Notes: a model not told the origin generated them from the sequence alone. 64,000 nt of DNA from Chiloscyllium plagiosum (GCF_004010195.1 NC_057726.1:60842070-60906069); one strand, 5' to 3'. Shown: positions 1,623 through 64,000, counted from the first letter of the stretch. A program made the numbers and translations.

Positions 1623-2629
1623 GGATTTCAGTGAGTCCCTCTCTCACTGCACGCCCCAGGTAATCTCCTCTGCCCTGAAGCTCTTCAGCCACATTCTCAA
1701 ACCGACTCACTACCACAGCCACATCTCCTTCCTCAGCACCTGCCTATGGAACCGACTGACTCCGGACTAAGGTCAGACCAACAAAATTTGGACCCAACCA
1801 GTACCTACAACAAATCCGAAGCCTCCAGCAACAGCCCTCCCTCCGGATCCTTCGCTCCACGCTTGCAGCCATGCGCCACTACCTACATTCCCTGCAATTA
1901 GACCTACTCCAGCTCAGGACAACACTCTCACAGACCTGCAAAGGACCTCTACTGTTCTTCATCCACAGAAGAATCCATACACTAAACAAACAGTTCTTTT
2001 TAGCCATATCGGAAATTAAAGACAGTAAGTACCAAAAACTTTCATGTACTTAGCCCGACACTCTGGGTTCCTCAACTGTTCCAGAATCTTCCATCGGCCT
2101 CCGAAATCACTCCGGTGCCATGAACCACGCGGCTGCTACAGCGCCCGCGGCAACAACTGCCGCCGCGAACCATGCAGGTCCTTGGACTCCTCCATCGCCA
2201 GACCATAGCAACACGACGGTTGGAGGAAGAGCGCCTCATCTTCTGCCTCGGAACCCTCCAACCACAAGGGATGAACTCAAATTTCTCCAGTTTCCTCATT
2301 TCCCCTCCCCCCCCACCTTATCTCAGTCAAATCCCTCAAACTCAGCACCGCCTTCCTAACCTGCAATCTTCTTCCTGACCTCTCCGCCCCCACCCCCACT
2401 CCGGCCTATCACCCTCACCTTGACCTCCTTCCACCTATCACATTTCCAAAACCCCTCTCCCAAGTCCCTTCTCCTTACCTTTTATACACACTTTCCTCAT
2501 TCCTGAAGAAGGGCTCATGCCCGAAACGTTAATTCTTCTGCTCCTTGGATGCTGCCTGACCTGCGCTTTTCCAGCAACACATTTTCAGCTCTGATCTCCA
2601 GTATCTGCAGTCCTCACTTTCTCCTCCAT
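1623..2629 (+). mobile_element. Internally deleted Penelope-like element (family A)
   Basis: The 5' part reads HYHSHISFLSTCLWNRLTP (PLE N-terminal H..FL..C motif) and is fused near 2170 to the endonuclease C-terminus (RRLEEERLIFCLGTLQPQGMN). It ends in a C-rich UTR and a hammerhead motif. GCAGTCTATA is duplicated at 1613-1622 and 2630-2639. Confidence 0.75.
2499..2533 (+). ncRNA. Minimal hammerhead ribozyme motif (stem I imperfect)
   Basis: CTGAAGA-A-GGGC tcat GCCC-GAAA-CG-TT. Confidence 0.55.
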
Positions 2630-4399
2630 GCAGTCTATACTCAGCCAAGAGCCTTTTGTTATCTAAAATTTTGTCATTTCCTGGAAGTTCTCCCTGATAT
2701 GGCATTATTGGCTGTCAGCATTTTGCGAGCATCACCCCCAAGGGGTCCTTGTTCCATGAGCCTGGACTCGGCGTATTTATAGACTTTTCAAGCTTAGGAC
2801 AATGTACTCCAAGTTCAAGCCACATTGAGCATGGCTCCCTGAATAATAATCAAAAATAAGACTTTATCTGCTAGTTGTAGAGCATGGCTGTAATTATGAT
2901 GTTTCTACTGCTACTTAAATTCTCCAATATGTATGTCTTTGGTTCTAGATAAAGCAGTGCTTTCCAACATTGAATTGCTTCGAGAACATAGGGTTTTTAA
3001 GGTGGGAAAAAATGAAATGTGCAGTAAGCAGGTGTGTTTGTTGGGAGGGCTCTATCTACTCCATTTTTCACTTAGCATATGCAAGTGCACAGTTGCAGCA
3101 TTATTTGCAGGCCTGAGGGTGGTTAGGTTGCACTACCATTTTGTACTAAACACCATCTATTCTCTTGTTCAGGCTTTTCATTCTATCCATTGTGGTGTTG
3201 CCCCTTCTGTGGTTTCTTTTTCCTTTGCATTCTTTTTGAACAATATAGTTGCTAGGTCATCACCTACGCAAGTCGCGAGAGTCGTAATTTCACAGTATTT
3301 GTCTGAAACAAAATACTGGAGACTGACTTCATTCGATAGGTTCATGGTAATGTGAAGTTCATAACGAACTGAGTTTTGGATTTTGGCATGTTTGTACGTG
3401 TAATTAGTTCAGTGTTGCTGGCATTGGGCATATGAGCTGTTACTTAAACTTTTTTTCCCTAAAGTGTCAGCTCAAATCATTGTCCTGTCAGTCACTGGGA
3501 GCGTAAGTGTTATTACAATGCAGTAAGGACACAGACATTTTAAAATCTTTTAGATTTGAAATAGAAATAACTATGTCCAAAGAAATTAAGTTTCATCACT
3601 AAGAAGCAAACGAATAACTAACCTGAAGAGTGAATTAGATTTAAACTAGGTATAGCAAGATAAGAGGGAAAGAGATTGCATTGGGAAGGAGGAAAAGAGT
3701 CAAAGTTAAAATACAAAATGTTATTTGTTCAAATCTCAAAGGTGAATTTACACATAATTGAATTAATGATTATTTTGTTTAAAATATACTTTTGGTGTTA
3801 TGGCACAGCTCAAAACTACTGAGGCAAGTTTTAATTTTGGTTTACTTTACAAATCCAGCATATTCTGTAATAAAAGTAGCAGGGAGCTTAAGGGTGAGCT
3901 GCAGGTTTTGTGACAGACAGCAGAGTGGTATAACTCTATGACATTATAGCTCTTGACAGCTCGTGGAATATTTCTTTAGTTGAATTTGCTGACTGGTCAA
4001 TAACAACAACATGTTCTGTGAGCAGTTACTTTTAAAACAGGATTTGAACCGTACATTATGAACTGGAACCTGGTGAATATTTGCTTATTCATGGTTTTTC
4101 TTTGAATTTTGATCCACAGCTTGGTCTGTCAAAACAGAAATGTTGACAGTCTTGGTTGCTAAAGACTATGAGGTCACTTGAAAGTGATGCAAAGAATGGT
4201 TGCTATTCGTAAACGAAGCTGCTGGGAAGTTGTTGTGAATAAGAGGGTTCCAACATGACACTCAGCAATCATGAAGGTTATAATTGTTACTAATCAATGA
4301 GATAAAAAAAAATCAAGGCCACTCATTTATACTTATTACCCAATAAGCTATTTCAAAAATGACTGATTTTTAAAAAATCAACATTGCTGAGTTTGGATA

Positions 4400-5795
4400 G
4401 TTGATCAGTGGTAGCAGTATAACTTGCACAGTTCCTTTGCAGCAGTAACAAAGTGGTGTACTGTTGCTGGTGTCATAGTTCTAATGAAATATTGAATCAA
4501 GGTCCTTTCTGTAGATGAGTGGTATAATTTTGAAGAAGAGTAACTTGTTCTCCCTGGAATAAAGCTGTTGAAAGGGGGAGAAGTACAATGGGATCATAAG
4601 GGAATGTTAGGGAAAGGCTACGGGAGGTTAGTAATCAAAGGCGCAGTGGATCAAAAGAGGAAAAGAATGATGGTTATAAAGAAGACTCAATGTCAATTCA
4701 GAATAGGTTCTGAGGATTTTTTTTTTAAACAGCAAGAAAAAGCACAGAAAACAAGAAGCAGGTGCTGGGGTGGGAGAAGAGGGAAGTGTTCAAATGGAGG
4801 AAAGAATTCATGGTTTGAAGTTGTAGAACTTAATGTTGAATCCAGAAGGCTGTAAAGTGCCTATCTAAGAATTAAAATGTTATTTCTTTAGCTTGAATTG
4901 ACTTCACTGGAATGCTGCATCAGACCTAGGACTGAAATGTGAGCATAAATACATATGTGCACTGAAATGGCAAATGACTGAAAATTGGGGGTCATGCTTG
5001 CTGATCAAAAAGGTGTAAAGTGGTTACTCAAACTGTATTTGCTGTCTCCAGTGTAAAGAAAGTGGGATTGAGTGTGGACCAAGTTAAAAGTTATACAAGT
5101 AGATTTCTACTTCGTATAGGAGTGGAGTGGTTGAGGCCAATGAACAGTCAGGAGAGAGAAGGTACAGGAACAAGTCTTGTATACTGAGATTACATGGAAA
5201 CGTATTGATGGGAGGGAGGTGGTAGTGGTGTGGAGGCTGTGGCTTGGGCATGATGGAGGAATGGGCTCAGGTGCTGTAGGACAAACAATTGCTACAGAGT
5301 ACTGAAGGGGGAAGGGAAGATGTTTGGCAAATTGCTGAAGGTGGCAGAATTGGCAGATGATCCTTTGAAAGCCAAGGGTGGTGGATGGCAAATAAGAAGA
5401 GTGCTGTGGTGTTCAGGATGGGAAGTGCTGTGTAAAAGTGAAAGAGGAAGTGTAGGAAATGGGTTGGATGTGGCTGTGGGGTGGAGATGGAGGGATTTGA
5501 GGGAAAGGAAGGCCTGTCAAAGCATCTTTGTGGAAGGAAGCATATAACAGATGTACTGCACAACTGTGAAAGTGGAACTGATGTCCTTGCTGATGTCCTG
5601 GTCAATATTTATAGCTTAAGTGGCAGCTTCAAACATATTAACCCATCATTAATATATCATTGCTTGTGGGAGCTTGCTTACCATGTTTCCTACAATGACA
5701 ATGGTAACTATGCTGCAAAAGTCCTCTCTTGGGATAAGTGTATTGGGATGTTCTGAGATTGTCAAAGGCATTGTATAAATACAAGTTTGTTTCCT
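4400..5795 (+). mobile_element. Old DeuSINE (SacSINE1-like) relic split by a minus-strand PLE fragment (about 4570-5570)
   Basis: Deu-domain/tail-like ttgtgggagcttgc...aaaggcattgtataaatacaag at 5655-5795. The reverse strand near 4830-4880 reads LGTLQPSGFNIKF, as in family A. Confidence 0.5.
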
Positions 5796-11012: not shown

Positions 11013-11222
<210 letters not shown>

Positions 11223-18700: not shown

Positions 18701-21168
18701 GGAGCTTAGATCATAAGACATATAAGTAAGAGGACATTCGGTCCATCAGGTCTTCTCTGCTACTCAGTGAGAATGGTTGATCTAATAATCCTCAAGCAAC
18801 CTTGCTTTTTCCCCATAATTCTGGATTCCCTTACTAATTTAAAAATGTCTGTCAGTCTTGATTGTACTTAGCATCTGCAGCTCTCTGTGGTAAAGGATAT
18901 CATAGACTCACTGCCTCATAAGGAAAAAGAAATCCTCCTCCTCTTGTAAATGGGATAACACTTTCAGAATAGGAACAAGCTTTCAACAGCCCCCAGAATG
19001 AATGTTTTCTTTCCAGAAGGTTGCCCCTCATTCTTCCAAACTTGAACATGCGTAGGTCCATTCTGTTGAACAACTTCTCATTAGAAAATCTCTCTGTACC
19101 CAGGATCAACCTTATAAACCTACACTGGATTGCCTCCAATGTCACTGTATATTTCATTAGATTAGAGGGTCAGCTTCTTTACTATGCTTTGTTAATCTTT
19201 GGATTTCTCTCCATTGCAGAAGAGTAGAGGCAGAGTCAATGAATTCTTGAATGCTAGGTTAGATAAATACTTGATTCACAAAGAAATTCAGCATAATAGA
19301 GGCAGGCAGTAGAATTCTATCCATAATTAGATCAGTCGTGAGCTTATTGGTCAGCAGAGCAAGATTGAGAGGCAAAACAGCCTATTTCCCCTGTATCTTA
19401 TGTTGTGATATTTTTTGATTGTTAAATGAACTGCATTTGCCATTCACACCTCGCCTTTCCACCTTCAACTTTCTTTGGGGTTTTACACTGGAACCTACTG
19501 CGATGAGGATTTTTTTAGTCAAGCACCGTCCACAGGAGATTCGGGACCTGCCCGGACACATTAATAGAGCATAGAACAATGGAACATAGAACAGTACAGT
19601 GCAGAACAGGCCCTTCGGCCTTTGATGTTGCGCTGACCTGTGAACTAATCTAAGCCCATACTCCTACGCAATCCCATCATCATCCATGTGCTTATCCAAG
19701 GATTGTTTAAATCTCCCTAAGTGTCTATTTTCTTTATCAATCTGGTTAAAGAATTTTCACTGAGCATGAAGTCTGAACGAGGAAATATAAAATAGAATAT
19801 TTAATTTGATTTGGAATCCATATACAGAAATTAAAACAAAATCTAAATAGTTCCAAAGACTCAACACCCTGAGTGTGTACATTTCTTGGTCCTAGATTGC
19901 CAACCTCTTGTGCCATTCATAGTTACTTAAATTGGAATTGACCTGCCGTGATTATGCAGGAGTGTTATATCTGTCACTTCAGTAAAGCATATCTTTTTTT
20001 GTCTACAACATTCTAAGGCAACTCTCATTGCCACATAGTTCTGATGAAGAGTCATCGGACTTAAAACATTAACTCAGCTTTCTCTCCGCAGATGCTGCCA
20101 GACCTGCTGATTTTCACCAGCAATTTCTGGTTTTGTTTCTGACAGCCATGTCCTGATTCCACATTTAATTGCATATGCAGCATCACTTATGTTTGTATGC
20201 TGTGAATTTAAATAACTGAACATTGGCAAGAGTGGCAGGGAAGCTAGCAAAAATCTAGACTGTTGCTTTCAGTCTTGCTTTTAGTCATCAGATTCTCCCC
20301 GGAATTTGGAAAATACATGATGCAATATGAGCTAGATTTTCAGCACATCTGAGGAGATATTCACACTTTTCTCAAAGTTGATCTATTCTAACCTTTATTT
20401 AAAATAGAGGATTTTTAAGTCAAGTTCATACATTTTCGAATTAACAGCTTTTGTTTTGTCTAATGTTTTTGAAATGCAGTTGATGAAATTGCAATCTGCC
20501 TCTGTCATTCTGGAAACTACCTAATGATGCACGAGCAGTGTTAATGACTTGAGTTTCGATTTATATTTAAACTCAGTTGACTTCCTTTGATATAGTGATG
20601 TCTTGCATCTGGCTATTTAGCAATGCATTTGTAGCATTCCAAATGTTTTGCTTCTAAAAATGCTCAATAATTTTCTGAAAAGAGAAAGCCAGGCAGTTTA
20701 TTTTGCTTGAATTAAAACCTCACATTTGCAAATAAGATACATTAGCTACTTGTATTTGGGGTGTTTTATTTAATCACAATGTGCTTTATCAATGTTATGG
20801 ACATTATAAAACAATTTCTGACAGTCTACCATGAGATGTTGGGGCAGATGACCAAAACCTGACCAGGGAGGTTATGTTGGGGAGTATCTTAGAGAAGTTT
20901 AGGAAGGAAATTACGGAGCTAGATCTTGGTTGCAGTTAAGTCAGGGGTGCTAAAGGATATTTTTGATTATGGGGCTAGAAGCAATTGCAGAGATAAGGAC
21001 CAAAATAGTAAAAGGATTTGAGTGTGAAAAAGGTCAGAAGTTTAAAACTGAGGCTGTGCTGAACTGGGAGCCAATTTAGGCAAGGAAGCTAATGAGTGAT
21101 TTGGACTTGTCGCAAGTTAGGACTCCGACAGAGTTTTTGGATGATGTCAAGTTTATATGTGATAGTGT

Positions 21169-21395
21169 TGTTGTGGTTCTGTTCACCGAGCTGGGAATTT
21201 GTGTTGCTGACGTTTCGTCCCCTGTCTAGGTGACATCCTCAGTGCTTGCTAGCCTCCTGTGAAGCGCTTCTGTGATCTTTCCTCTGGCATTTGTAGTGGT
21301 TTGAATCTGCCGCTTCCGGTTGCCAGTTCCAGCTGTTCAGTTGCAGTGGTCGGTATATTGGGTCCAGATTGATGTGCTTATTGATTGAATCTGTG
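21169..21395 (-). mobile_element. PLE family B terminal-repeat fragment (single arm)
   Basis: Near-identical to the left arm at 26310-26510; contains a hammerhead motif. Confidence 0.8.
21206..21245 (-). ncRNA. Minimal hammerhead ribozyme motif (one stem I mismatch)
   Basis: Reverse complement: gca-CTGAGGA-T-GTCACCT agac AGGGGAC-GAAA-CG-TC-agc. Confidence 0.6.
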
Positions 21396-21854: not shown

Positions 21855-23050
21855 TACTGGGGTGGATAAAGCCAGAAGTCATATGACAATAGGTCTTAGT
21901 CCAACAGGTTTATTTGAAATCTCAAACTTTCGGAGTGTAGCACCTTCGTCAGGTGAACTGAGAGAAGCACACAGGCACAAAATTTATAGGTAGAGAGATC
22001 AAATGATCGTACAATGGTATGAGCGGAGTGTCAAATAATAAGTCTCTACACATGATCAAAAGTGTCACAGTGTGAGTAAAGTGTGAACAGCTGAATAACA
22101 AGCAAAGGGTTACTTATTGTCTGATGAAATGAGGCAGAGAGGTCATTACAAAAAAATTAAAATTAAGGTGCTGAAGATAAACCAAATGACTGGAATAACA
22201 AGTATAAGAGTTGCATGCTGAGAGTCTAACCAAAGTAGAAAGTAATGCCAAACCATACAAACTAATTAAGATAGAGAGATCATAACAATTTATGAAGGTG
22301 ATGGTGTCAAAACAGGACAGTAAGGAAGATTTTACAGATACAGAACAGTGTAGTGGGGTCACACGTAGCATGACATGCACCCACGGTCACAGTTAAGACA
22401 GTCTTCATGGGTACAGAACTTGGCTATCAGTTTCTGCTTGGCGATTCTGCATTCTTATGCATCTCAAAGGCCGCTTACCTGAAGATCATAGCAGTGCTTG
22501 ACAGTTGAAGTGTTCCCTGACTGAAAGGGAATATTCCTAACTGGCGATTGTTGCATGGTGTCCATGCATTCATTGTCATAAGGTCTGCATGGTCTCACTG
22601 AAATATCATGCTTTGGGGAATCCTTGCCTGCAGCATATGAGACAACATTGGCCGAGTCGCATGAGTATCTGCTGTGTACGTGTTGGGTGGTGTTCTCACA
22701 CATGATGGTAGTATTCAAGTCGATGATCTGATGTGTCTTGCAAGTTTGTGTGGTGTTGTGGTCGATGTTGTCCTGAAGGTTGAGTAGTTTGCTGCGAATG
22801 ATGGTCTGCTTAAGGTTGGGCGGTTGTTTGAAGGTGAGAAGTGGAGGCATAGGGATAATCTTGGTGAGATGCTCATCGTCATTGATGACATGATGAAGGC
22901 TGTGAAGAACATGGCGTAGTTTCTCCACTCCGGGGAAGCACTGGAAAATGAATGGTACTCCATTAATCCTTGCCTTCTGAGGAGTACATTGCAGTTTTTT
23001 GTTGTGGCATGTCAGAAATGGTGATCAATAAGTTGAGCATCGTATCCCAT
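21855..23050 (-). mobile_element. Penelope-like element (family C), 5'-truncated, with GIY-YIG remnant
   Basis: ORF 22464-22928 reads PPLLTFKQPPNLKQTIIRSKL...YSCDSANVV. The terminus near 21860-21960 is homologous to 23750-23870 and has a decayed hammerhead. Confidence 0.75.
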
Positions 23051-23688: not shown

Positions 23689-23874
23689 TTTCTTACATCA
23701 CACTGCAAATTTTTGCTATCAATTCTGTGTTACGATCGAGCCCTCCACAATCACCTGATGAAGGAGCGTCGCTCCGAAAGCTAGTGTGCTTCCAATTAAA
23801 CCTGTTGGACTATAACCAGGTGTTGTGATTTTTAACTTTGTACACCTCAGTCCAACACCGGCATCTCCAAATCA
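23689..23874 (+). mobile_element. PLE family C 3'-terminal fragment with 10 bp TSD
   Basis: TTGCTAAATC occurs at 23679-23688 and 23875-23884; homologous to 62260-62380. Confidence 0.8.
23752..23786 (+). ncRNA. Minimal type-I hammerhead ribozyme motif, intact
   Basis: cac-CTGATGA-A-GGAGC gtc GCTCC-GAAA-GC-TA-gtg. Stems I and II pair perfectly and a palindromic AGCT replaces stem III. Confidence 0.75.
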
Positions 23875-26345
23875 TTGCTAAATCATGTTTAGCTGAAGGA
23901 TTCCTTGAGTTGTCATACTAGTAAGTAACTTCATAAGTAACATTTCTATTATTTACTTTCTCTTTGCCTTTTGAGATGAGACAGTATTTCCCTTCCTCTG
24001 ACTCTTCCTTATTTAAAAGAGCTACCATTAATGCCCATTAAACCTGTTCTGTTGTCTACCTTTTTACACAGTGGTCAAGACTGTGGTTACATTGTAATTT
24101 ATCAATATCACTTCCTTCAAACTCCTTTGGTTTTTAACAATACAGTCTTACCATATGACAAAATGTTTATCTCATGACTTAATTAGTATTATTATAAACT
24201 TGGAATCAGTTCACCAATGCAGCCATACTATTGATACTGAGCAACACATACCGGGGAGAGTTGAAATCCATTATATACCAAAAGGCTCATTATTGCAAGA
24301 GTGAAGATTAAGTGGCACGCACGCTTCTTTTGCTTACATGCTGATTGTGGGCCAGTAGCCCAGAATGCCCCAAAGAGCTTGCAATTGCATGGATCCTCCA
24401 GTGACATGTTACTGGCATCTGGTGACAGGTGAGAAAATCAAATTATTGTTCATGCTTGTACATCATTATTCTAGGTGAGTGGTAAGTAGCTAACATATGA
24501 ATGAACACGAAAAACTTCTTCTTTTCAGCCTGCTCTACCATTAAACAAGATCATGGCTGATCTGATTTTAATCTTAACTCTATATTCCTGTATTCTCCTG
24601 ATATAATTTCATTTTCTTGGTAATCAAGAGCCTATCTATTTCTTCCATAAAAATATTTGAAGACCTTGCATCCATTGCCTTTTAGGGATGGGAATTCTAA
24701 ACACTGATTGGTCTGAGAGAAAAAATAACTCCTCACCTGTTTTAAACGAACAGCCCCTTAGTTTAAAACTGTAATCCCTTGTTCTAGACTCTCCCACAAG
24801 TGAAAACCCTTTCCAACATTCATCTTGTCAAGTCCCCTCAAGGTCGTGTTTATTTCAATTAAGTTGTCTCTTGACTCTTCTAAACCCTAGTAGATACAGT
24901 TTCCAGCCTGTCAAGCCTTCCTTGATTACTTGCTGTATCACCATGCTAACCTCCTTTACTTCATGCACCAATCCACCCAGATCTCTCTGCCTCTAAGAGC
25001 TCTGCAACCTACCTCCATTTAGATGATATGCTTTTTAAAAAAATTTTCTACCAAAATGGACAACTTCACACTTTGACATTTTACTCCATTTGCCAGATCT
25101 TTGCTCACTCACTTAACCTACCTATATCCTTTGTAGGCTTGTTATATCCTCTTCACAATTCACTCTCTGGTCTTATTTGTGACATCAGCAAATTTAGCTG
25201 CTATTCCTTCAACCAGATCATTGATATAAACTGTAAAGAGTTGAGATCTGTGGGATCGTGTTCAAATAATAACCAAATCAGTGAGTGGCAAAAATAGCCT
25301 CCTTTATTCAGCAACCGCAAGTAGCGCGAGTACAAGGTGGTAATAAAATCCCGAAAACAGTGGTTACAATAGCCTATTACACACAGTCCTTACATATAAT
25401 TAAAATTCCATTACTATGGTGTTACCTTTTATCTATAGTACACACAGGATGTAGGGGCTCTGCCCTGGGAGGCAGGAGATGGGTTAAAATGTGCTAAATT
25501 CTGGCAGCTACTTCTGGTGGGATTAAGAGTGTCCCTCCAGTCTGCCTTCATAATTAAGAAGTGTTATTCCTTTTGTCTTTTAAGTTAGTTAATGTTAGTA
25601 AAATAAAAATTAGGCCTACATGCTCTAAATAAGTTAGAAATTGTACCTGTGCTTAATGAAAGTAAAGGATATTAAATTGATTACCACAGCTGGGTTGTGA
25701 GATTTGTTTACTATTTGGCTGTGTAAGGTTCATTCATGCTATTTTATGGAAACGCTGTTTTGTCAGTTATTTTCTTGAAGGGATAACTGCCCAGTTAAAA
25801 GGTATTCAACAAGTACATACTGATTGAAGAAGCTGTTTGATGTTCTGTAATCTATTCAGGGCCAAGAGATGGTTGGTCAGGTCTGATTAATATTATAATG
25901 TTTTGTTGCGACCTAATGGGGATGGTGTGGGTTGCGATATTGACGTCTCTTCAGAAGTAACAAGGGCTGATAAGGTGTGAAAATGCAGTCATGGGTTTGA
26001 AAGGGTTGTTTTAAGTTTGGTCTATTTTATGATAGTGAATTTTACTACAGAGCCACAATTTTACAAATGAATGAAAACTGTTATTAGTAGGGAGTTGTGA
26101 ATGAAATAGGAATGCAGTGTTCACTTGAGTGGGTTAGTAAAGGAGTTATCAATGAATAAGCATAAACTGGGTTAGTCAAGGGTCCTAGAATACAATGTCT
26201 CTCAGATCCCAGCACTGACCGTTGTGATGTGCCACTCATGACATCCTGCAAGATTGAAATTGACCTATTTATTACTACTCTGATTCATGTTAAGCAACCA
26301 ATCTTTTTTGTTGTGGTTCTGTTCACCGAGCTGGGAATTTGTGTT

Positions 26346-26385
26346 GCAGACGTTTCGTCCCCTGTCTAGGTGACATCCTCAGTGC
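26346..26385 (-). ncRNA. Minimal type-I hammerhead ribozyme motif, intact
   Basis: Reverse complement: gca-CTGAGGA-T-GTCACCT agac AGGGGAC-GAAA-CG-TC-tgc, with palindromic ACGT. Confidence 0.75.
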
Positions 26386-26612
26386 TTGGGATCCTCCTGT
26401 GAAGCGCTTCTGTGATGTTTCCTCCGGCATTTATAGTGGTTTGTCTCTGCTGCTTCCGGTTGTCAGTTCCAGCTGTCCACTGCAGTGGCTGGTATATTGG
26501 GTCCAGGTCGATCTGCAGCGGACAGCTGGAACTGACAACCGGAAGCGGCAGATACAAATCACTACAAATGCTGGAGGAAACATCACAGAAGTGCTTCACA
26601 GGAGTCTCCCAA

Positions 26613-26652
26613 GCACTGAGGATGTCACCTAGACAGGGGATGAAACATCTGC
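26613..26652 (+). ncRNA. Hammerhead motif, CpG-decayed copy
   Basis: gca-CTGAGGA-T-GTCACCT agac AGGGGAT-GAAA-CA-TC-tgc; the ACGT palindrome is lost. Confidence 0.45.
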
Positions 26653-27909
26653 AACACAAATTCCCAGCTCGGCGAACAGAACCACAACAACGAGCACCCG
26701 AGCTACAAATCTTCTCCCAAACTTTGAATCTTCTTTTTGCCACTGTTACATCCAAAGCCATGAGCTTTTATCCAGTAACCTTAGATGTGGCATCTTATCA
26801 AATACCTTCTTGAAATATCAGTACAATATATCTACTGCTACCCCTTTATCCACAGCACAGGTTACATTTTCAAAGAACTCTAATAAATTAGTTAAGTGTG
26901 ATTTCCTTTGACAAGACCATGTTGGTTCTGTCTGACTTTCCTTGAACCTATCCAAGTATCCTGTTATAACATCTTTAATAATTTTAACAGATTTTAAGTG
27001 AACTGGCCTGTAGTTTTCTGTTATTTGCTCCCTCTCTTTTTGAATTCAGAAGTTATATTAACTATTCTAATCAAAAGGATCATTCCCCAAAAGTTAAAAC
27101 CAGTGCATCAACATCTTCCTGGTAAGACCCTAGGATGAAATCCATTAGCACCCAGTGACTTATCAACTTATAGTTCAACAACTTTCTCCATAATACTAAT
27201 TGTAATTTTCTTGAGTTCCTCTCTCCCTTTCAATTCTTGATTTACAACCATTTCCGAGGTGTTATTTGTATCGTCTCTAGTGAAGACTGATACAAAGCTA
27301 GCTTGTAGCTAATGGCTGTTGAGAAATTGTGCTTGAAATGCTCTAGCTTGTGGGAAGAGATACTTGCTGACTTGATCTGGGAACTGAGATGCAGCTGTTC
27401 AGATTAACTAAACCAGTGTTCCAAAGAAATCCTTAATCTGGGATGTAACAGCCTTGGGATGTGCAACCACAGGAGAAAAAGCTGCATGAAAATACTTGTG
27501 GAGTTAAAGCCATCTGCATTGAAATGGGAGATCTTTTATAATTGTTTCCAGATAAATCATTATCCATTAAATCCTTTTGATCTCAGTTCAATGCAAAATA
27601 ACTTGTAATAATTGTTTACTATGTTAATCAAATTTTGCAATATTAATTTTGGTTTTAAGACCTTTTAACAGAAATTTCAAATCTGGGTAAATTATACACG
27701 TGATGGGTAGTTGTGCCCCTACGTTTGAGTGAAGAGACCTGGGTTCAAGTCCCACTATTTCAAAGGTGCGTCATAACATCTCTGAACAGCTGAAAATATC
27801 TGAAATGTGTCCAGTATAATATTTAATTTCCTTTGTAGCTACTGTCTTTTAGTATCTGATGCCTGTTGGCGAGATTGCAGAGTTGTCAACATACATGACT
27901 GTGTGTCAA

Positions 27910-32512: not shown

Positions 32513-33042
32513 GTTGTACCTTTGCTCGCTGAGCTGGTAGGTTTGTTTTCGGACGTTTCGTCACCATGCTAGGTAACATTATTAGTGAGCCTCTGGTGAA
32601 GCGCTGTCCAATGTACTGTTTGTTATAGTCCTTGCATGGTATTTTGTAAATGACATTTGTTTCGCTGGTTGTTGGTATCCTTAGAAACGAAGAAGGACAT
32701 CACTTTGACTGGGACATCACATCCATCCTAAGACAGGCTAAACACAGACGTGAATGGGATTTCCTAGAGGCCTGGCATGCAAACCAGAACTCTATCAATA
32801 AACACATCGATTTGGACTCCATTTACCAACCTCTGAGAAAAAGAACAGCAAATGATATCACTCACCTTCACAGACCAAGACACAGAAATAGAAAGCAGGA
32901 CAGAACACCAGCACTTCACTGGAGGCTCACTGATTATGTTACTTAGCATGGTGACAAAACATCTGTAAACAAACCTGCCAGCTCAGTGAGCTAACTTACA
33001 ACCTAAACCTCAACCTGAGCTACAAATCTTCTCAAAAATCAC
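32513..33042. mobile_element. PLE family B insertion with inverted 5' arm, nested in a DeuSINE relic
   Basis: ORF GHHFDWDITSILRQAKHRREWDFLEAWH (end of the GIY-YIG domain). Left arm 32513-32605 is inverted relative to 32905-33003. TSD-like AATTAAAG(A/C)AG at 32502 and 33043. Confidence 0.82.
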
Positions 33043-35328: not shown

Positions 35329-35463
35329 GATTTGGAGGTGCCAGTGTTGGACTGGGGTGTGCAAAGTTTAAAAATCTCTCAACACTAGGTTAGGGTCCAG
35401 CAGGTTTATTTGGAAGCACAAATAAACATGTTGGACAATAACCTGGTGTTGTGATTTTTTAAT
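35329..35463. mobile_element. Miniature palindromic PLE family C insertion with 11 bp TSD
   Basis: TCTGCTGTCAT occurs at 35318-35328 and 35464-35474, with inverted terminal arms inside. Confidence 0.78.
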
Positions 35464-36720: not shown

Positions 36721-39024
36721 AACGATTTTGGAGAAGATTTGTAGTTCAGTTTGTGGATCCGGTTGTAAGTTTGCAAACTGAGCTGATAAATTTGCTCACA
36801 AATGTTGCATCACCAAGCGAGGTAACATCATCAGTGAGCCTCCAATAAAGCGCTGGTGTTCTGTCCCGCTTGCTATTTGTGTGTCTTGGTCTGTTGTGGT
36901 GTTTGACATCACTTCCAGTTCTTTTTCTGACAGGTTGGTAAATGGGGTACAAATCGATATATTTGTTAATGGAGTTCTGGTTGAATGCCAGGCCTCTAGG
37001 AATTCCCGTGTATGTCTCTCTTTAGCCCGTCCCAGGATGGCCCTAGTGGAACTCGTGTCCCTCTTCATCTGTGTATGGCTACTAGTGATAGTTGGACAAG
37101 TCTTTTGGTGGCTAGTTTGTGCTCATGTCTCCTAATGGCTAGCTTCCTGCCGGTTTGTCCAATGTCATGTTTATTGCAGTCTTTGCAGGGTATTTTGTAT
37201 ATGACGTCTGCTCTGCTGGTTGTTGGTTTTCTTTTTGGATTAGATTAGATTACTTAGGGTGGAAACAGGCCCTTCAGCCCAACAAGTCCACACCGACCCT
37301 CCGAAGAGCAACCCACCCAGACCCATTCCCCTACACCTAACACTACGGGCAATTTAGCACGGCAATTTAGCATGGCCAATTCACCTAACCTGCACATCTT
37401 TAGACTGTGGGAGGAAACCGGAGCACCCGGAGAAGTCTGGGTCTTTTAAATTCATCAGGAGCTGTTTCAGTGTGTTGGTAGGTTTTGTGGGCTGCCATAA
37501 TGCCTAGGGTCCTAGTAGTCTGGTTGTCATCTCCCAGACGTCTTTGTTTGGCGGGGTGTCTAGAGTCTCTGGGGGTGTTGTGTTGTCTTGTTTAGGTATA
37601 TTGTGTAAGAATTGAAAGACTATGCTTATCGGGTATCTGTTGTTCCTGAATACGTTGTACAGGTGTTCTTGCTGTGCTTCTCCTAGTCCCTAGGTGCTGT
37701 AGTGTTTTGTCTTGTTTAAATAATGTCCTGATGCAGCTTCGTTTGTGGGTGTTGGTATGATTGCTCCTGTAGTTGAGTATCTTGTCAGTGTGTGTGACTT
37801 TCCTGTAAATGCTGGTCTGTAGCTCTCCATTGGCTTTGTGTTCTACTGTGACGTCTAGGAAGGGGAGTCTGTTGTTGGTCTCCTCTTGTTGACCTTTATA
37901 GTTTTAAGGACGTTGTTTGTGTTTGTGGGTTTTTTCTAGTTTGTTGCGATCATGATGACCAAGGTGTCATCCTCATAGTGGACCCAAAGCTTGGACTGGG
38001 TCTTGGGAAGGAAAGGCTGTTCGTTCTAACCTCTGCATAACTGCTTCTGCCTGATATTGGTGATCTCATTGGTGTCCTGTTGATTTGTTTGTAAATCTTG
38101 TAGTAGAAGGTGAAGAGGGTTATGAGGCACAGATCTACTAGTTTGAAGATACTGTCCTTGCTGATGGAGTTAGTGCTGTCAGGTGTTTGTGTTGTTGGTT
38201 CATCCAGCAGCGAGGCCAATGTTTCTTTTGGCTCGGGTAATGTTTATCGATGTGAATAGGGCCATCGTGTCGAAGGAAATCATGACTACCTCGTCCTCTA
38301 CCTTGGTGTCTTTGATGTTAAGGAATTCCTGCATAGTGGCTTGAGTCTTCTACGTGTTTCAGTTTGCATTGCAGTTCCTTTGCTAATCTGTATGATGGTG
38401 TATTGGGAAGTGAGACTTTGGGACTGAGGGGGGGGCCCTTATTTATGTACCTTTGCTAATCCAAAGAAATGGGATGTGTTGGATACTTTAGGTTTCATTC
38501 TTTTGGAGGTCTGTCTTGTTAATTTCACCTGTCTTATGAAGTCTCCTCAGGGGATGCTGTAATATGGTTTTCTAGCTGTGGAGTTGGGTCCATCGCCACC
38601 TGTTGGTTGGTGTTGGTATCTGCGAGTAGTGTGTTTGCTTTTTCAATGTACCAGCAGCAAACATTACATTGGACAGACGGGCAGGAAACTAGCCACCAGG
38701 ATACATAAGCACCAACTAGCCTCAAAAGACATGACCAACTATCACTAGTACCCATACATACAGATGAAGGAAAACATCAGTTCGACTGGGACAATACATC
38801 CATCCTGAGACAGGAGAAACAAAGACATGCATGGGCATTTAACTCTATTAACAAACATCAATTTGGACCCCATTTCCCAACCCTTCAAAAAGAACCAGAC
38901 GTGATATCACCCACCACAACAGACCAAGACACACAAATAGCAAGCGGGACAGATGTTACCTAGCATGGTGACGAAACATCTGAGAACAAATCTACCAGCT
39001 CAGCTAGCAAATCTACAATCTGAG
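36721..39024 (-). mobile_element. Penelope-like element (family B): RT plus GIY-YIG remnant with an inverted + strand 3' arm (about 38655-39024)
   Basis: The minus strand reads MISFDTMALFTS, YKQINRTPMRSPIS and WVHYEDDT (RT motifs) and REFLEAWHS. The + arm reads YIGQTGRKLATRI. TTGTGGGA is duplicated at 36713 and 39025. Confidence 0.88.
37238..37432 (-). mobile_element. HE1-type SINE 3' half inserted in the PLE
   Basis: (gatta)n tail and reverse-complement match to 41330-41522. Confidence 0.85.
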
Positions 39025-41962: not shown

Positions 41963-43404
41963 TAGAGCTGTTATCTTGGATATCTTGCAGAGTAGAGCAA
42001 GCATCTAGTTGCAATGAGTCAATACAATTGCATCAAGAATTTCTTCAGAAGTCAGTAAAGGATCAGGCTTGAAAGGCCTATTCGTTGTTTTGAAGTTATA
42101 CCAACAGTTGTAGTAATTTCATTTGATTACCTTCCAAACTCTAATACAGGGTTGAAAACTCTTTCTTTGTATCGGTATTATCTTTTGAACAAAATTCAGT
42201 TTTATAACCTGAATACCACCTTCCATGTCCTTCACCCACCCGCACACCTACAGGCGGCCCTGTTATGACATAGGCTGCTTTTAGCACAACCAACTCATTT
42301 TCACTTACTTATGGTCCCCATTATCAGTTTTTTTTCTCTCTTGAGCATACTATCACTCCTTTGCCTTGCTGACTGTCTCTTGCTCACTCACTCTTAGCTC
42401 CATCTTCCTCATCCGCTGTTCCTTTTCTCACCCCACCACCACATTTCCTAACCACTATCAGTTCAGAAGGGTCACTGGGCTTATAACATTAACTCTGCTT
42501 TCTCTCCACAGATCCTGCCAGACTTGTTAGAGTATCTCCAGTTTTTGCTTTTGTTTCAGATTTCCAGCTTCCACAGTTCTTTGTTTTATTTCAATTTAAA
42601 TTCAATTATTTTTTAAAATGAACAACCCATGTATCTTATCGCAGGCAATTTAAAAGTTGAAGACTGGTTTCATAAACCTTCCATCAGACCTGATACTTCA
42701 CTGACTTCTGAAGAAAAGTAATTGCTTGTTATTTTGTTAGTTGTTTAGTCCTCTGAGAATTCACGGTTAGGGAAAACTATGTGAGTCTTTAGCTTTTCTG
42801 TTTCCCTTTCTAGCAATGCATTTCTGCATCTGGACAGATTAAGTGTGATGGAAGGTAGTTTTTTTTTTCTGGACTTGACAATATTTGTTTTTCATTAAAT
42901 ATGTGGAAGCTCTTGCAAACTTGGAGCTGAGTGCCGAACTGGCACATTTGCTGTCCATGACTGAGGCTGTGAAGGCAAACAGACCATTTACCACATCTGC
43001 ATGCTTACTTTCAACAACTGGTGTACAAGGGTACCCAGGTCTCCTTTTCCCAGTCTACCGTCACTTCAAGTAGCAATGTGCCTGCCTGTTTTTGCTTCCA
43101 AAGTGGACAATCTCATTTATCAAAATTTATTCTTCCTCCTCCATGCATTTATCTACCTATTCAACTTGTCCAAATTATACTGTTGCCCTTCTTACAGCTC
43201 ACCCTTCCACCCAGTTTTGTGTTTGCACGCTTGAGGATATTATATTTGGTTCCTTAATCTAAAAGTTCAAGTAAACCACGTCCACTGGCACCGCCTTATC
43301 AACTTGTTACATCCTTTAAAAATTCCAATGTACTTGTCAAGCATGATTTCCCTATTGACTGTGATCTGATTTCCAAGTTCTATGCTATTAAATCTTTTGA
43401 TTTG

Positions 43405-44235
43405 GACTCCACTGTTTTCCCCAATTCTTCTGCCTCTGCTCCCAGGAAGAGCAATTCAACTCCAGGACATCCCAAATGGCCTTCTATTTCAAGGACCGCA
43501 GTTTTCACTCCCACGTGGTCAACAATGCCCTCGCAAAAGATGTAAAACCCGTGCCCACACCTCCTTCCCCCCCCCCCCCCCCCCGCCCACCTCTCTCCAA
43601 GGCCCCAAAGGATCCTTCTACATCTGCACCTAAACACATCATCTACAGCGTTCATTGTTCTTGATGTGGGGGAGACAGGATGCTAACTTGCAGAATGTTT
43701 CAGGGAACATCTCTGGGACACACTCACCAAGCATCTCCACTGACCTGTGGCCAACCACTTCAATTCCCTCTCCCATTCCAAGGACATGCAAGTCCTGGGC
43801 GGCCTTCCACTGCCAAATCTGAGCTACCCGATTCCTGGACAAAGAATGCCTCATTTTCCGCCTTGGGACCCTCCAACCACATGGCATCAATGTCCAACTT
43901 CACCAACTCCCTCATCTCCCCACCACCACCTCCTCCCAGATCCAACCCTCCAATTCAGCAACGACCTCTTGAACTGTCTTACCTGTCCATCTTTCTGCCC
44001 ACTTATCCACTCCACCCTCCCCTCCGACCTATTGCCATCACCCCCGCTCTGCATTTACCTATCGCCTTCCCATCTACCAGCCCAACCCTTACCTTCCTAT
44101 TTATCTATGCGCCCCCCCCCCCCCCCCCCCCCCCCATTCCTGATTAAGGGCTTATGCCCGAAATGTTGATTCTCCTACTCCTCAGGTTGCTACCTGACCT
44201 GCTTTGCTTTTCCAATGCCACACTTCTCAACTCAT
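43405..44235 (+). mobile_element. PLE family A 3' fragment
   Basis: ANHFNSLSHSKDMQVLG is homologous to 2172-2300. It has a C-rich UTR and a decayed hammerhead, CTGATTA..GGGCttatGCCC GAAA, at 44140-44166. Confidence 0.75.
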
Positions 44236-46484: not shown

Positions 46485-46524
46485 CCAGACGTTTCATTAC
46501 CTGGCTAGGTAACATCGTCAGTGG
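46485..46524 (-). ncRNA. Minimal hammerhead ribozyme motif, near-intact
   Basis: Reverse complement: cca-CTGACGA-T-GTTACCT agcc AGGTAAT-GAAA-CG-TC-tgg. Confidence 0.68.
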
Positions 46525-47089: not shown

Positions 47090-47198
47090 CTCAGAAAACG
47101 AACAGGAAATGACATCACCACAAACCCCAGGAACCCCATCCAGGACAAAGATATAAATAGAAAGCAGGAGACAACAACTTCGCTTCACTTGGAAGTCG

Positions 47199-47235
47199 CC
47201 ACTGATGATACCTAGCCAGGTAATGAAACGTCTGG
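47199..47235 (+). ncRNA. Hammerhead motif with a 3-nt deletion in stem II
   Basis: cca-CTGATGA-TACCT agcc AGGTA AT-GAAA-CG-TC-tgg. Confidence 0.45.
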
Positions 47236-47391
47236 ATATCAAACCTACAGCTCAGCGAGCAAACCTACACCCTAAACCTCAACCTGAGCTACAAACCTTG
47301 CAAATTTGATACTATTGCACAATTCTTCATGACTGCTAGTCTGTGTTGTTTAATTGGTCAGTGCATTCAGCTAAGTAAAAGATTGATGTTT

Positions 47392-55784: not shown

Positions 55785-56525
55785 AGACAAATTTGGTGAA
55801 TGGAGAAGAACATGGCAGAAGGAAGGTTGTTTGGAAAAATGTGAAGTTATCCGCTTGTATGGAGAAATGGATGCACAATATTTCTTTAGTAAGAAGGTGG
55901 AAAGTGTCGATGTACAAAGGTGTCCTTGTCAATAACTCACTGACTGCTAACATGCAGGTGCAGCATGCTATTGATGGGATATTAGCCTTTATCATAAGAG
56001 GATTTGTGTACAAAAGTAGTGAAGTGTTGCATCAATTGTCTAGGAGCTTGGTCTGGTTGCACTTTTTGCAATTTTTGACTCTATCTCAGGAAAGATTATT
56101 ATGCCATAGAAGGTGGTACAGTGAAGGTTTAACAGACTTGCTTCTGGGATGTTGGGACTATTCTATGAAGATAGATTGGGTCTGTTTTTCTCTAGAGTTT
56201 AGAAGAATAAGAGGTGATCTCATTACAACCTACAAAATACTTAAAATGGATATTCAAGATAGGTGCAGATGTTTCTCCTGGTTAGAAAGTCTAGAACCTG
56301 GGGTACAGTTTAAAAATAAGGGGAATGCCACTGTTATTAAAGGTCTGTTTTCGTGCTGTACAACTCCGACTATAGAGCAAGCTTAGTCTTTGAGACTGTG
56401 TAAGATAGATGTCGTTTTCTTTTTATCATCAAGGGTTATGGAATAGGGGGAGTAAAAGATGTTGAGGTAATGAATCAGCCACGATGATAGTGAATGGGGC
56501 AGGCTCGACGGGCTAAATGGCCTGC
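55785..56525 (+). mobile_element. Decayed CR1 LINE 3' fragment
   Basis: ILAFIIRGFVYKSSEV and FSLEFRRIRGDLITTYKILK. Confidence 0.8.
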
Positions 56526-57230: not shown

Positions 57231-57264
57231 GGTGGGAAAACCAGTTTCAAAGGGAGTGTTACCA

Positions 57265-57720: not shown

Positions 57721-57772
57721 GTCTGAGAAAGATCCATGACAAGGAGCCATAGTACAATTGGAGTTGATACCT

Positions 57773-58612: not shown

Positions 58613-58614
58613 CT

Positions 58615-60962: not shown

Positions 60963-60964
60963 AT

Positions 60965-62021: not shown

Positions 62022-62690
62022 TAGAGTCAGAGTTATACAGCATGGAAACAGACCTTTTGGTCCAACTTGTCCATGCTGACCAGATATCCTAAATTGATCT
62101 AGTCCCATTTGTGTCAGCATTTGGCCCATATTCCACTAAACCCTATCTATTCTTGTACCCGTCCAGATGCCTTTTAAATGTTAAAAATCACACAACACCA
62201 GGTTATTGTCCAACAGGTCTATTTGGAACCACTAGCTTTCGAAGCGCTGCTTCTTCACCACCTGATGAAGAAGCAGAGCTCCAAAAGCCAGTGCTTCCAA
62301 ATAAACCTTTGGACTATATCCTGATGTTTAGTGATTTTTAATTTTGTCCATCCATTCCAACACCGGCACCTCCAAATCATGACTTTTAAATGTTGTCATT
62401 GTACCCACTGCCAATACTTCCTCTGGCAGCTCATTCCATACACGTGCCACCATCTCATGAAAAAGTTGTCCCTTAGGTCACTTGTAAATCACCCCCCCCC
62501 CCCCCCCCACCTTAAACCTATGCTGTCTAGTTTTTAATTCCTGTACCCTGGGAAAAAAGACTTTTGCTATACATCCTATCCATCCCCATCATGAGTTTCT
62601 AAACCTCTATAACACCCCACAGCCTCCAATGCTCCAGAGAGAAAAAAAGCCATAGCCAATTCAGCCTCTACCTATAGCTCAGATCCTCCA
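62022..62690 (-). mobile_element. CR1/HER1 3' fragment containing a PLE palindrome
   Basis: Homologous to 27910-28350. Confidence 0.82.
62183..62382. mobile_element. Palindromic PLE family C insertion with 12 bp TSD
   Basis: CTTTTAAATGTT occurs at 62171-62182 and 62383-62394. The arms meet at back-to-back decayed hammerhead motifs (62230-62293). Confidence 0.82.
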
Positions 62691-62989
62691 ATTGCTCTTT
62701 GATTAAAGAATGTAGATTGACATGCATTTCCTTACAATAGTCCTTTTGTGGGATGAAACAGGAGGAACACCAATTATCTGATGTTTGTGAGTCAGATTTC
62801 TTTTCAATATCTGAAGTTAAACAAAACTTTTAGTTAAAATGAAGGGCATCACTTTGAAAAGAAAAGTAGCATAGCACCCAAGTAATCAGTGCACTTATTA
62901 GAGAATCTGGCAGTCACAGGTAAGGAACCATATAAGTCTGTCATTTATTTGATTAGAGTTGGACCAGTAGCTAAGCTGGTTTTGAATCA

Positions 62990-63313
62990 GAGAAGTAAGG
63001 AAGGGAATGCCGCACACCACCTGCAGTCCAAGTACATCTTGTATCTATTACATACAGCATCATTAGAATTCTTGTCTAGAAGGCATCAATGATTTTGAAG
63101 GTTAGTAAGCTTTGAGAAGATTTGTAGCTCAGGTTGAGGTTCTGGATATAGGTGAGAAGTAAGGAAGGGAATGCCGCACACCACCTGCAGTCCAAGTACA
63201 TCTTGTATCTATTACATACAGCATCATTAGAATTCTTGTCCAGAAGGCATCAATGATTTTGATAGTAAGTTTTGAGAAGATTTGTAGCTCAGGTTGAGGT
63301 TCTGGATATAGGT
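62990..63313. repeat. Tandem duplication of about 160 bp (unique flank plus PLE terminus)
   Basis: 62990-63153 versus 63154-63313, with few differences. Confidence 0.92.
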
Positions 63314-64000
63314 TTGCTCACTGAGCTGGAAGGTTTGTTTTCAGACGTTTCGTTACCATACTAGGTAACATCATCAGTGAGCCTCTGGATGAAGCCGGGT
63401 GAAGGAAAATCACCTATACAGTGTATTCAAAAAGAATGGGTACCCAATGAACATAGTCTGCTGATTTCTCAACAGCAGACAAAACACATCCAGAAACCCT
63501 AGCCACTCTTCCCTTATATCAAAGACATCTTAGAAATGACTGCCAGACTACTCAGACCTCTTGGCATCATGGTAGCCCACAAACCTAAAACAGCAGCTAA
63601 TGAACTTGAAAGACCCTATACAGACAACTAGCAAAATTAATGTCATTTACAAAATACTGTGCAAGAACTGTGACAAACACTACATTGCACAAACAGGCAG
63701 AAAACTAGCCACCAGGATACGTGAACATCAACTAGTCACAAAAAGACATGTCCCACTCTCACGAGTATCTTTACATGCAGATGAGGAAGGACACCACTTC
63801 GACTGGGACAACATATCCATCCTAGGACAAGCCAAACAGAGACACGCATGAGAATTTCTAGAAGTATGGCATTCCAAATGGAACTCTATCAACAAACATA
63901 CTGACTTGGATCCCATTTACCACCCCCTGAGAAAAAGAACAGGAAATGACATCACCAATCCAAGGAAACCTAAACATATAAATAGGAAGCGGGCCATGCC
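63265..64000. mobile_element. PLE family B: minus-strand terminal arm followed by a + strand GIY-YIG 3' region (runs off the window)
   Basis: ORF 63600-63851 NVIYKILCKNCDKHYIAQTGRKLATRIREH is a GIY-YIG endonuclease motif. Confidence 0.88.
63341..63380 (-). ncRNA. Minimal type-I hammerhead ribozyme motif, intact
   Basis: Reverse complement: tca-CTGATGA-T-GTTACC tagtat GGTAAC-GAAA-CG-TC-tga; stems I and II are perfect. Confidence 0.8.

What the first reader, a model, noticed from the sequence alone, without database searches (positions are those of the whole stretch)
2499..63380. About a dozen minimal hammerhead ribozyme motifs from three PLE families, with covarying stems
Seen in the sequence: the core CUGANGA-N-[stem II]-GAAA-NN-UH recurs with different but pairing stems. 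Examples are GGAGC/GCTCC with cac/gtg (23752 +), GTCACCT/AGGGGAC with gca/tgc (26346 -), GTTACCT/AGGTAAT with cca/tgg (46485 -), GTTACC/GGTAAC with tca/tga (63341 -) and GGGC/GCCC (2503 +, 44140 +). Stem III is always reduced to a palindrome (ACGT or AGCT). Decayed copies lie near 20041, 21930, 32550, 32930, 36800, 38955 and 62262. Established: Penelope-like elements carry minimal type-I hammerheads that cleave as dimers. Inference: these elasmobranch families use self-cleavage to define RNA ends, and some copies here may still be catalytically competent. The class is known, but these families may be uncharacterised.
Basis: partly seen in the sequence, partly recalled or inferred. Interest (0 to 1): 0.7.

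Follow-up and report, generated by a model that had tools for sequence, protein, structure and literature searches.

The report
Penelope hammerheads with in-vivo cutting record
These are real, already-described tiny hammerhead-ribozyme motifs in the end repeats of Penelope-type jumping genes; the inserted copies do not begin or end at the predicted cut, but at nine other places in this genome the small RNA U6 is joined exactly at that predicted cut, which likely records the ribozymes cutting their RNA in living germ cells.

Summary
The motifs are real. A 1.34 Mb genome sample holds 68 intact motifs against 0 in 5 shuffles. The class is known (Cervera 2014). The idea that cleavage defines the ends is not supported for insertions: 2 of 304 copies end near the predicted cut, and most end 35-100 nt beyond it (the known 'tail'). 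Half of the A and E copies begin at the motif's 5' edge, likely the capped transcription start. No window copy has a tandem partner. Yet U6 snRNA is fused exactly at the predicted cut at 9 of 9 loci found within the searched span, in three families. This fits ligation of U6 to a ribozyme-made 5'-OH end and is indirect evidence of cutting in vivo. Family A also carries a used poly(A) site about 30 nt past the cut. The scan noted the U6, start-site and poly(A) points before on other DNA; U6 was a lead from those notes, re-tested here.

The parts
23752..23786 (+). Family A (Neptune-type) minimal hammerhead, intact; C3 at 23755, predicted cut after 23783
   Evidence: the same subfamily sequence is fused to U6 at the cut in L260
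23795..23830 (+). Poly(A) signal ATTAAA (23795-23800), poly(A) addition at 23812/23815 in family reads, GU/U-rich stretch behind
   Evidence: 377 and 463 of 2727 laid reads carry non-templated A runs; the reads come from many family copies
23689..23874 (+). 5'-truncated family A pLTR with long ('tail') end, flanked by TSD TTGCTAAATC
26346..26385 (-). Family B (Poseidon-type) hammerhead, intact; predicted cut after 26349; short-end arm of an inverted pair
26613..26652 (+). Family B hammerhead, decayed (loop ACAU, G10.1.U11.1); tail-bearing arm
26308..26728 (.). Head-to-head inverted pLTR pair (family B) with a one-sided tail; the centre junction differs between copies elsewhere, so each pair is made at insertion
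21206..21245 (-). Family B hammerhead, core intact, first stem I pair broken (A.A)
46485..46524 (-). Family C (Poseidon-type) hammerhead, intact; predicted cut after 46488; inverted arm of a TSD-flanked insertion (about 46465-47301, assembly gap inside)
47199..47235 (+). Family C hammerhead with a 3-nt deletion at the base of stem II, behind a GIY-YIG C-terminal fragment
63341..63380 (-). Family D (Poseidon-type) hammerhead, intact; predicted cut after 63344; tail-bearing inverted arm
   Evidence: family D is fused to U6 at the cut in L261
63390..64000 (+). 5'-truncated, broken Poseidon ORF fragment (thumb/linker and GIY-YIG), running off the window end
   Evidence: Pfam GIY-YIG E=0.032, below the curated cut-off
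32549..32588 (-). Family D, dead core (CTAATAA)
32927..32966 (+). Family D, dead core (G8>U, G12>A); partner of 32585- with an endonuclease fragment between
36798..36837 (-). Family D, decayed (GCAA, loop non-palindromic)
38952..38983 (+). Family D, 5' half of the core deleted
2499..2534 (+). Family E (Neptune-type) hammerhead; core intact, first stem I pair broken; endonuclease fragment upstream
44136..44171 (+). Family E, dead core (G8>U); endonuclease fragment upstream
20038..20076 (+). Family F (E-related) solo stub, G12>A
42455..42560 (+). Family F, strongly decayed stub
21921..21955 (-). Family A, decayed; 3' end of a broken Neptune-type copy whose endonuclease fragment lies at 22464-23024(-)
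62182..62380 (.). Family A mini-palindrome: two decayed hammerhead arms (C3 at 62262+, partner at 62261-) joined at the motif's 5' edge, TSD CTTTTAAATGTT
35377..35456 (.). Family A coreless palindrome; the minus arm starts at the predicted cut (0/+1), the plus arm at about +7
   Evidence: a single case

Best explanation
The motifs are minimal type-I hammerheads in the pseudo-LTRs of Neptune- and Poseidon-type Penelope-like retrotransposons; the window's copies are truncated, mostly decayed insertions whose ends lie away from the predicted cut, while the source elements' ribozymes likely do cut a fraction of their RNA in germ cells. Mechanism, step by step. (1, inferred) Neptune-type RNA starts, capped, at the 5' edge of the hammerhead. 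(2, end positions shown; enzymology taken from PMC11167929) The element's RT primes internally at two sites about 35-100 nt past the cut, giving the short end and the tail end. (3, inferred) Priming in the 5'-most pLTR runs off at the RNA start and leaves roughly 85-130-nt solo stubs or head-to-head palindromes; priming further downstream gives ORF-bearing copies. (4, inferred from U6 fusions) Some RNA self-cleaves after H17, probably helped by protein and/or a second copy, leaving a 5'-OH end that a ligase such as RtcB can join to U6; such chimeras were then retrotransposed. (5, inferred) The likeliest role is control or processing of the element's RNA, not setting insertion ends: the cut would remove the cap, in family A also the poly(A) end, and in B/C/D the probable start codon. 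Odds by step: identity 0.97; ends not set by the cut 0.9; in-vivo cutting 0.85; start-site run-off 0.6; regulatory role 0.5.
For: Motif far above chance. Stem I types among 68 intact motifs: TTC/GAT 31, CAC/GTG 12, TTC/GAA 11, GCA/TGC 6, CCA/TGG 2, ATC/GAT 2, four single cases. In B/C/D one pair is U-A, C-G or G-C by family; 90.7% of cells pair vs 29-47% with slid partners. RT/GIY-YIG frames lie upstream, with the C-x4-C-xx-C linker in A and E-like copies and none in B/D; a near-full-length A copy carries a hammerhead at both ends (L126). 3' ends are two-peaked and at the cut in 2 of 304. 5' ends at -45..-26: A 31 of 53, E 97 of 192, Poseidon 1 of 25; the next 35 nt upstream hold 4 and 13. A G replaces the templated pyrimidine before the apparent start in 9 of 29 short vs 0 of 32 long copies. 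U6 is fused exactly at the cut at 7 E loci, 1 A locus and 1 D locus, with 0 hits in the upstream span where ordinary copies start. The E fusions come from seven different subfamily sequences, so they are independent events. Poly(A) reads lie 29-32 nt past the cut in A.
Against: No cleavage was measured. RNA reads show no pile of starts or ends at the cut (table 6 empty), though a poly(A) single-cell library could hardly show one. Frangieh et al. also saw no cut ends in anole RNA-seq and found the ribozyme dispensable in vitro. The dimer fold is not the minimum-energy form. Nine U6 events is a small set; a strict B/C/D pattern gave none; the D junction has a one-T ambiguity; 2 of the 30 top U6 loci join Neptune endonuclease DNA at unrelated places. 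Compensatory change rests on one pair in three related families (465 of 500 shuffles reach that count). The extra-G test is post hoc, and 16 of the 29 short copies with an intact start motif keep C or T (p about 0.006 for 9 G vs 2 A). No full-length Poseidon copy was recovered, so use of the ATG in the core is inferred.
Confidence: 0.8

Rival explanations
1. Cut-and-circle model: the ribozyme cuts at both pLTRs, the unit-length RNA is ligated into a circle that restores the motif, and the RT copies this circle. Cleavage would then define the RNA unit although insertions span the cut.
For: The U6 chimeras suggest that cut ends get ligated and that ligated RNA is a usable template. In A the cut lies between the apparent start and the poly(A) site, and insertion ends lie beyond the poly(A) site, which a linear polyadenylated RNA could not template. 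Proposed in PMC4209133.
Against: Half of the A/E copies stop at the motif's 5' edge, which a circle would not impose. Read-through transcripts explain the ends equally well. No circle junction can be seen, since ligation restores the genomic sequence. The ribozyme was dispensable for insertion in vitro (PMC11167929).
Confidence: 0.25
2. One reading: self-cleavage by tandem dimers directly sets the 5' and 3' ends of the RNA that is inserted, and some window copies still do this.
For: The palindromic loop is kept as ACGU or AGCU; four intact motifs; a few stubs start at the cut (window 35421-; A 5 of 53 within -5..+9).
Against: 2 of 304 3' ends and 5 of 245 A/E 5' ends lie at the cut; no same-strand tandem partner in the window.
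Confidence: 0.07
3. The motif is a catalytically silent structure (protein-binding or promoter element), and the U6 joins arise from a protein nuclease or an RT template switch at the same bond.
For: Very low in-vitro activity was reported for minimal hammerheads (PMC4209133); template switching is the older model for U6 chimeras (PMC4476161); no cut ends in reads.
Against: The join is at the hammerhead's own scissile bond in three families with different flanking sequence, without microhomology in E and A, and ordinary cDNAs rarely stop there.
Confidence: 0.1
4. The 5' pile-up at the motif's edge is an RT stall or an endonuclease or microhomology preference rather than a transcription start.
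For: Starts are spread over about 20 nt; an ATT (the preferred cut of the anole enzyme, PMC11167929) lies there in E; the G excess is modest.
Against: The stop comes after, not before, the structure is copied; it is seen in A and E but not in Poseidon families with similar motifs; a G excess is present.
Confidence: 0.3

Closest known systems
[quoted passage not shown]
   Same: Core, bulged base after A9, G10.1-C11.1, palindromic 15.2-16.2, thousands of mostly single copies, opposite-strand pairs 100-700 bp apart; reported in fish Poseidon and Neptune elements.
   Different: No shark family is named in the parts read (supplements not seen); the copy number here is far higher (about 170,000 intact by extrapolation); that paper had no in-vivo evidence.
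Poseidon element PAc of Anolis (Frangieh et al. 2024, PMC11167929; read parts 1-2 of 4)
   Same: Two internal RT start sites that make the tail; ORF start at the base of stem II with the cut 26 nt inside (28 nt after the ATG in B/C/D here); uncut RNA as the main template.
   Different: They found no cut ends in vivo; here U6 fusions mark the cut. The Neptune-type start pile-up and poly(A) site are not described there.
EN+ PLE insertion structure (Arkhipova et al. 2013, PMC3846280, passages; Craig et al. 2021, PMC8557442, passages)
   Same: 5' truncation, inverted pLTR, one-sided 30-40-bp tail, TSD, pLTR holding the first codons, Neptune Zn-finger-like linker.
   Different: Junctions concentrated at the hammerhead's 5' edge are not mentioned in the passages seen; Craig et al. 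call the ribozyme's function unclear.
U6/LINE-1 chimeras made by RtcB ligation (Moldovan et al. 2019, PMC6789731, passages; Doucet et al. 2015, PMC4476161, passages)
   Same: Mature U6 end with five U joined to retroelement RNA, then retrotransposed; needs a 5'-OH end.
   Different: The partner is a Penelope-like element and the join sits at one fixed, predicted ribozyme bond instead of variable positions.
Non-LTR retrozymes (Li et al., bioRxiv 10.64898/2026.07.22.740005; read parts 1-2 of 5 and passages)
   Same: Type-I hammerheads related to pLTRs; found in one cartilaginous fish.
   Different: Defined by same-strand tandem units; none in this window.

Membership tests
Minimal type-I hammerhead of metazoan PLEs | Core CUGANGA / GAAA / UH with stems I and II | tested here: met
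   4 of 18 window motifs intact; 68 in 1.343 Mb vs 0 in 5 shuffles
Minimal type-I hammerhead of metazoan PLEs | Unpaired base between 9 and 10.1; G10.1-C11.1 | tested here: met
   29 of 30 hits have the extra base when it is optional; G-C in A, B, D, E; G.U in family C
Minimal type-I hammerhead of metazoan PLEs | Palindromic residues in place of stem III | tested here: met
   CG 67, GC 19 of 146; CA/TG 44 fit CpG decay
Minimal type-I hammerhead of metazoan PLEs | Located in the pLTR of a PLE | tested here: met
   not shown for family F, whose ORF was not recovered
Minimal type-I hammerhead of metazoan PLEs | Self-cleavage 3' of H17 | not testable with these tools
   Indirect only: U6 joined at that bond at 9 loci
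Minimal type-I hammerhead of metazoan PLEs | Works as a dimer | tested here: inconclusive
   The double-hammerhead fold gains at most about 2 kcal/mol over stem II alone in 3 of 7 sequences and is never the minimum
Rfam hammerhead families | Covariance-model match | tested here: not met
   No hammerhead family among 9 matches at E<=10; expected for motifs without stem III
Neptune clade PLE (families A, E) | RT followed by CX2-5CxxC linker and GIY-YIG endonuclease | tested here: met
   L002, L126, L139 for A; L056 RT and L060 linker for E-like copies; read by motif, Pfam gave no hit for L002
Penelope/Poseidon clade PLE (families B, C, D) | GIY-YIG endonuclease without the Zn-finger-like linker | tested here: met
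   L065, L076, window 63576-63848; Pfam GIY-YIG E 0.0004-0.03, under the cut-off
Neptune / Poseidon clades | Placement in an RT tree | not tested
   No reference PLE sequences were at hand
EN+ PLE insertions | Inverted pLTR, one-sided tail, TSD | tested here: met
Non-LTR retrozyme | Two or more same-strand tandem units, each with a hammerhead | tested here: not met
   Window copies are solo or inverted
U6 ligation chimera (RtcB type) | Full U6 3' end with five U joined without microhomology | tested here: met
   8 of 8 E/A loci; the D locus is compatible but ambiguous by one T
U6 ligation chimera (RtcB type) | RtcB dependence | not testable with these tools
   inferred from PMC6789731

The most novel reading that the evidence does not exclude
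The genome keeps a fossil record of the whole Penelope RNA cycle: the hammerhead sits between cap and poly(A) site, cuts in the germ line, its 5'-OH product is ligated by the host (to U6 by accident, to its own 3' end by design), and the element's RT copies the ligated RNA. U6 fusions could then serve as a general genomic assay for which bond a ribozyme cuts in vivo, and circular RNA would be a real Penelope intermediate.
Probability: 0.3. Interest if true: 0.78.

Novelty: new member of a known kind. Interest (0 to 1): 0.48.

Why it matters
The motifs themselves are ordinary for this class. What matters is that the role of Penelope hammerheads is an open question: activity in vitro is weak, cut ends were not found in anole RNA-seq, and a 2021 paper calls the function unclear. 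Exact U6 joins at the predicted bond in three families are indirect in-vivo evidence, and they give a cheap test that can be run on any genome with Penelope elements. The end maps also separate the two jobs: insertion ends come from internal priming and likely from the transcription start, not from the cut. I found no paper on U6-Penelope ribozyme fusions (0 papers; none evident from the listing), but subscription papers and supplements were not searched.

Tried and rejected
Rfam scan: no hammerhead match; the mir-214 hit at 26438-26562 is only the centre of the inverted pair. Pfam on 10 window frames: nothing relevant. Idea that 26308-26728 is a MITE-like unit that moves whole: rejected, the centre junction differs among the 9 distinct loci aligned. 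Descriptor hits at 36224 and 40230, and other core-like strings without pairing stems: treated as chance. The look-up of sequencing runs: no RNA holder listed on record. Run X21 laid 0 reads. No pile of read ends at the cut in X20; uninformative for a fragmented poly(A) library. No poly(A) ends among the 6 loose-end rows shown for E and B; 134 rows were hidden. U6 patterns with no hit: B/C/D strict, upstream spans for E and A. A minor class of ordinary copies starting at the cut: weak in A (5 of 53 within -5..+9 vs 1 in -25..-6), absent in E. Upstream-extension estimate: confounded by inverted partners and replaced. No full-length Poseidon copy among 20 fetched loci. Lunse et al. (dimer cleavage) could not be read; known only through the review PMC6765202 (passages). 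The host gene of the window was not identified.


Full report
Observation. A descriptor with stems gives 3 strict hits in the window and 0 in 20 shuffles; allowing one stem II mismatch adds 26382-, the decayed 26616+ and one likely chance hit. BLAST with the window's own motifs gives 18 copies in six families: A 4, B 3, C 2, D 5, E 2, F 2. Four are intact: 23755+, 26382-, 46521-, 63377-. In 140 genome stretches taken at round coordinates (1.343 Mb without N), a sequence-only core pattern gives 146 hits vs 8-16 in shuffles; 68 are fully intact vs 0 in 5 of 5 shuffles, roughly 170,000 per genome by extrapolation. Rfam does not detect them.

Covariation. It is between families, not within them. 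Stem I appears as CAC/GTG, TTC/GAA or GAT, GCA/TGC, CCA/TGG and TCA/TGA. In 14 distinct aligned B/C/D rows, 90.7% of cells pair against 29-47% for slid partners, but only one pair changes on both sides (U-A, C-G, G-C), and these rows stand for three related lineages.

What the motifs sit in. Upstream frames are GIY-YIG C-termini. B, C and D lack a cysteine linker (Poseidon type); A and E-like copies carry C-x4-C-xx-C (Neptune type, feature from PMC8557442 passages). Locus L126 shows a near-full-length A element: inverted pLTR, direct pLTR with hammerhead and tail, ATG straight after the tail, RT, endonuclease, 3' UTR, second hammerhead 3251 nt on, including a gap and an E insertion. In B, C and D an ATG overlaps A9 and opens a frame through the cut and tail, while the upstream ORF stops in the stem II loop. 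This matches the anole element, but no full-length Poseidon copy was recovered. The inverted pair at 26308-26728 has relatives with different centre junctions, 10-13-bp TSDs and a tail on one arm only: the structure described in PMC3846280 and PMC8557442.

Do ends map to the cut? 3' ends were measured for 304 of 318 copies (14 skipped for gaps or short flanks; the set includes loci chosen by search). Two lie within 5 nt of the cut. The rest form two peaks: A +55-64 and +85-94, B +35-49 and +70-79, D +35-49 and +70-79, E +45-69 and +90-99. These correspond to the two internal priming sites of PMC11167929. 5' ends were measured in the round-coordinate sample for copies at least 85% like a reference. 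In A, 31 of 53 start at -45..-26 and 4 in the next 35 nt upstream; in E, 97 of 192 and 13; in B, C and D, 1 of 25. Of those starting at -45..-21, 22 of 31 A and 63 of 107 E copies are arms of small palindromes with differing junctions. Starts at the cut +-1 are 1 of 53 and 4 of 192. So cleavage does not set insertion ends. I read the pile-up as run-off at a capped start. After a lead from note e1-8027663 I counted the base before the apparent start: G in 9 of 29 short copies, 0 of 32 long ones; this is modest and post hoc. The Inr-like look of TCATTC and TCAGTT is recalled, not tested.

RNA. In about 2% of a poly(A) single-cell run (X20), 377 and 463 of 2727 laid reads carry A runs behind 23812 and 23815, 12-15 nt after ATTAAA and 29-32 nt after the predicted cut; the DNA there is not A-rich. 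The reads come from many family copies, so this shows that the family's pLTR supplies a poly(A) site, not that this locus does. Contigs of run X1, from the same coded organism, match unique window DNA with 0-1 differences, so it is likely the same species. No pile of ends was seen at the cut for A, B or E, which this library could hardly show.

In-vivo cutting. Earlier notes (e1-8159350, e1-8160647) reported U6 fused at the cut; I tested this. Of the 30 best U6 loci fetched (48 scored), 2 join family E exactly at the cut, 2 join Neptune endonuclease DNA elsewhere and 26 have other neighbours. Patterns that let the join vary over 31 positions returned 7 E hits (6 loci, one already seen) and 1 A hit, all at the cut, controls 0. 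The upstream 30 positions, where ordinary copies start, gave none. A strict B/C/D pattern gave none. A looser one gave one D hit (control 1), confirmed by 39 nt of U6 and 40 nt of D starting at the cut, with one ambiguous T. Total: 9 of 9 independent loci within the searched span, in three families; the seven E cases differ in subfamily sequence. RtcB joins U6's cyclic phosphate to 5'-OH RNA (PMC6789731, passages), and a hammerhead leaves a 5'-OH on its 3' product (established chemistry). The simplest reading is cleavage, ligation and retrotransposition; ligase and timing are inferred. These loci lie outside the window.

Dimer. Nearest-neighbour energies give the double-hammerhead little or no gain over two free stem II hairpins and never the minimum, in line with reported weak or protein-assisted activity. 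Window copies have no same-strand partner, so activity at these loci is unlikely without trans pairing.

Verdict. Real, known class, new members. Literature seen: PMC4209133 and PMC11167929 (parts 1-2 of 4), the retrozyme preprint (parts 1-2 of 5, passages), passages of PMC8557442, PMC3846280, PMC2377424, PMC6789731, PMC4476161, PMC6765202, PMC6155905; Lunse et al. not seen; no supplements seen, and those of PMC4209133 may list shark motifs. Searches for prior reports.

Noticed in passing
L246, L258/L259, L261: In 3 of 3 informative U6-chimera palindromes both arms carry the U6 join. Since such RNAs must be rare, both arms likely derive from one RNA molecule, or one arm from the other's cDNA. 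In L254, L257 and L260 the second arm stops before the cut.
   Followed up: partly
window 23795-23815: Family A pLTR carries a poly(A) signal that alternates between ATTAAA and AATAAA among subfamilies, 11 nt past the predicted cut; an E subfamily also has AATAAA further down.
   Followed up: partly
window 35377-35456 and 14380: Coreless stubs that begin at or within 2 nt of the predicted cut; single cases.
   Followed up: partly
window 20075-20095; tails of families A and E: Pyrimidine tracts ending in AG, with branch-point-like words, follow the hammerhead and resemble 3' splice sites (recalled consensus); Penelope pLTR introns are known.
   Followed up: no
L241, L245: U6 fused inside Neptune endonuclease-coding DNA, about 300-450 nt upstream of the hammerhead.
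   Followed up: partly
L223-L252: About a dozen of the 30 top U6 copies are followed by one other repeat family beginning GGTGGCACGGTGGCTCAGTGG, likely a SINE, and one by a tRNA-like sequence (L230).
   Followed up: no
window 62170-62392: The family A mini-palindrome is inserted into a copy of the window's common LINE-end repeat, with a 12-bp TSD.
   Followed up: partly
L105, L114, L029: Short same-strand repeats of family B ends next to a main copy; L114 repeats the post-cut segment.
   Followed up: no
window 21592-21926, 21959-22110, 22930-23132: Unique window DNA is matched by contigs of a run guessed to be RNA, so the region may lie in an intron; host gene not identified.
   Followed up: no
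window 28229-28687, 55787-56386: Decayed CR1/L2-type RT C-terminal fragments (recalled resemblance; no Pfam support).
   Followed up: no
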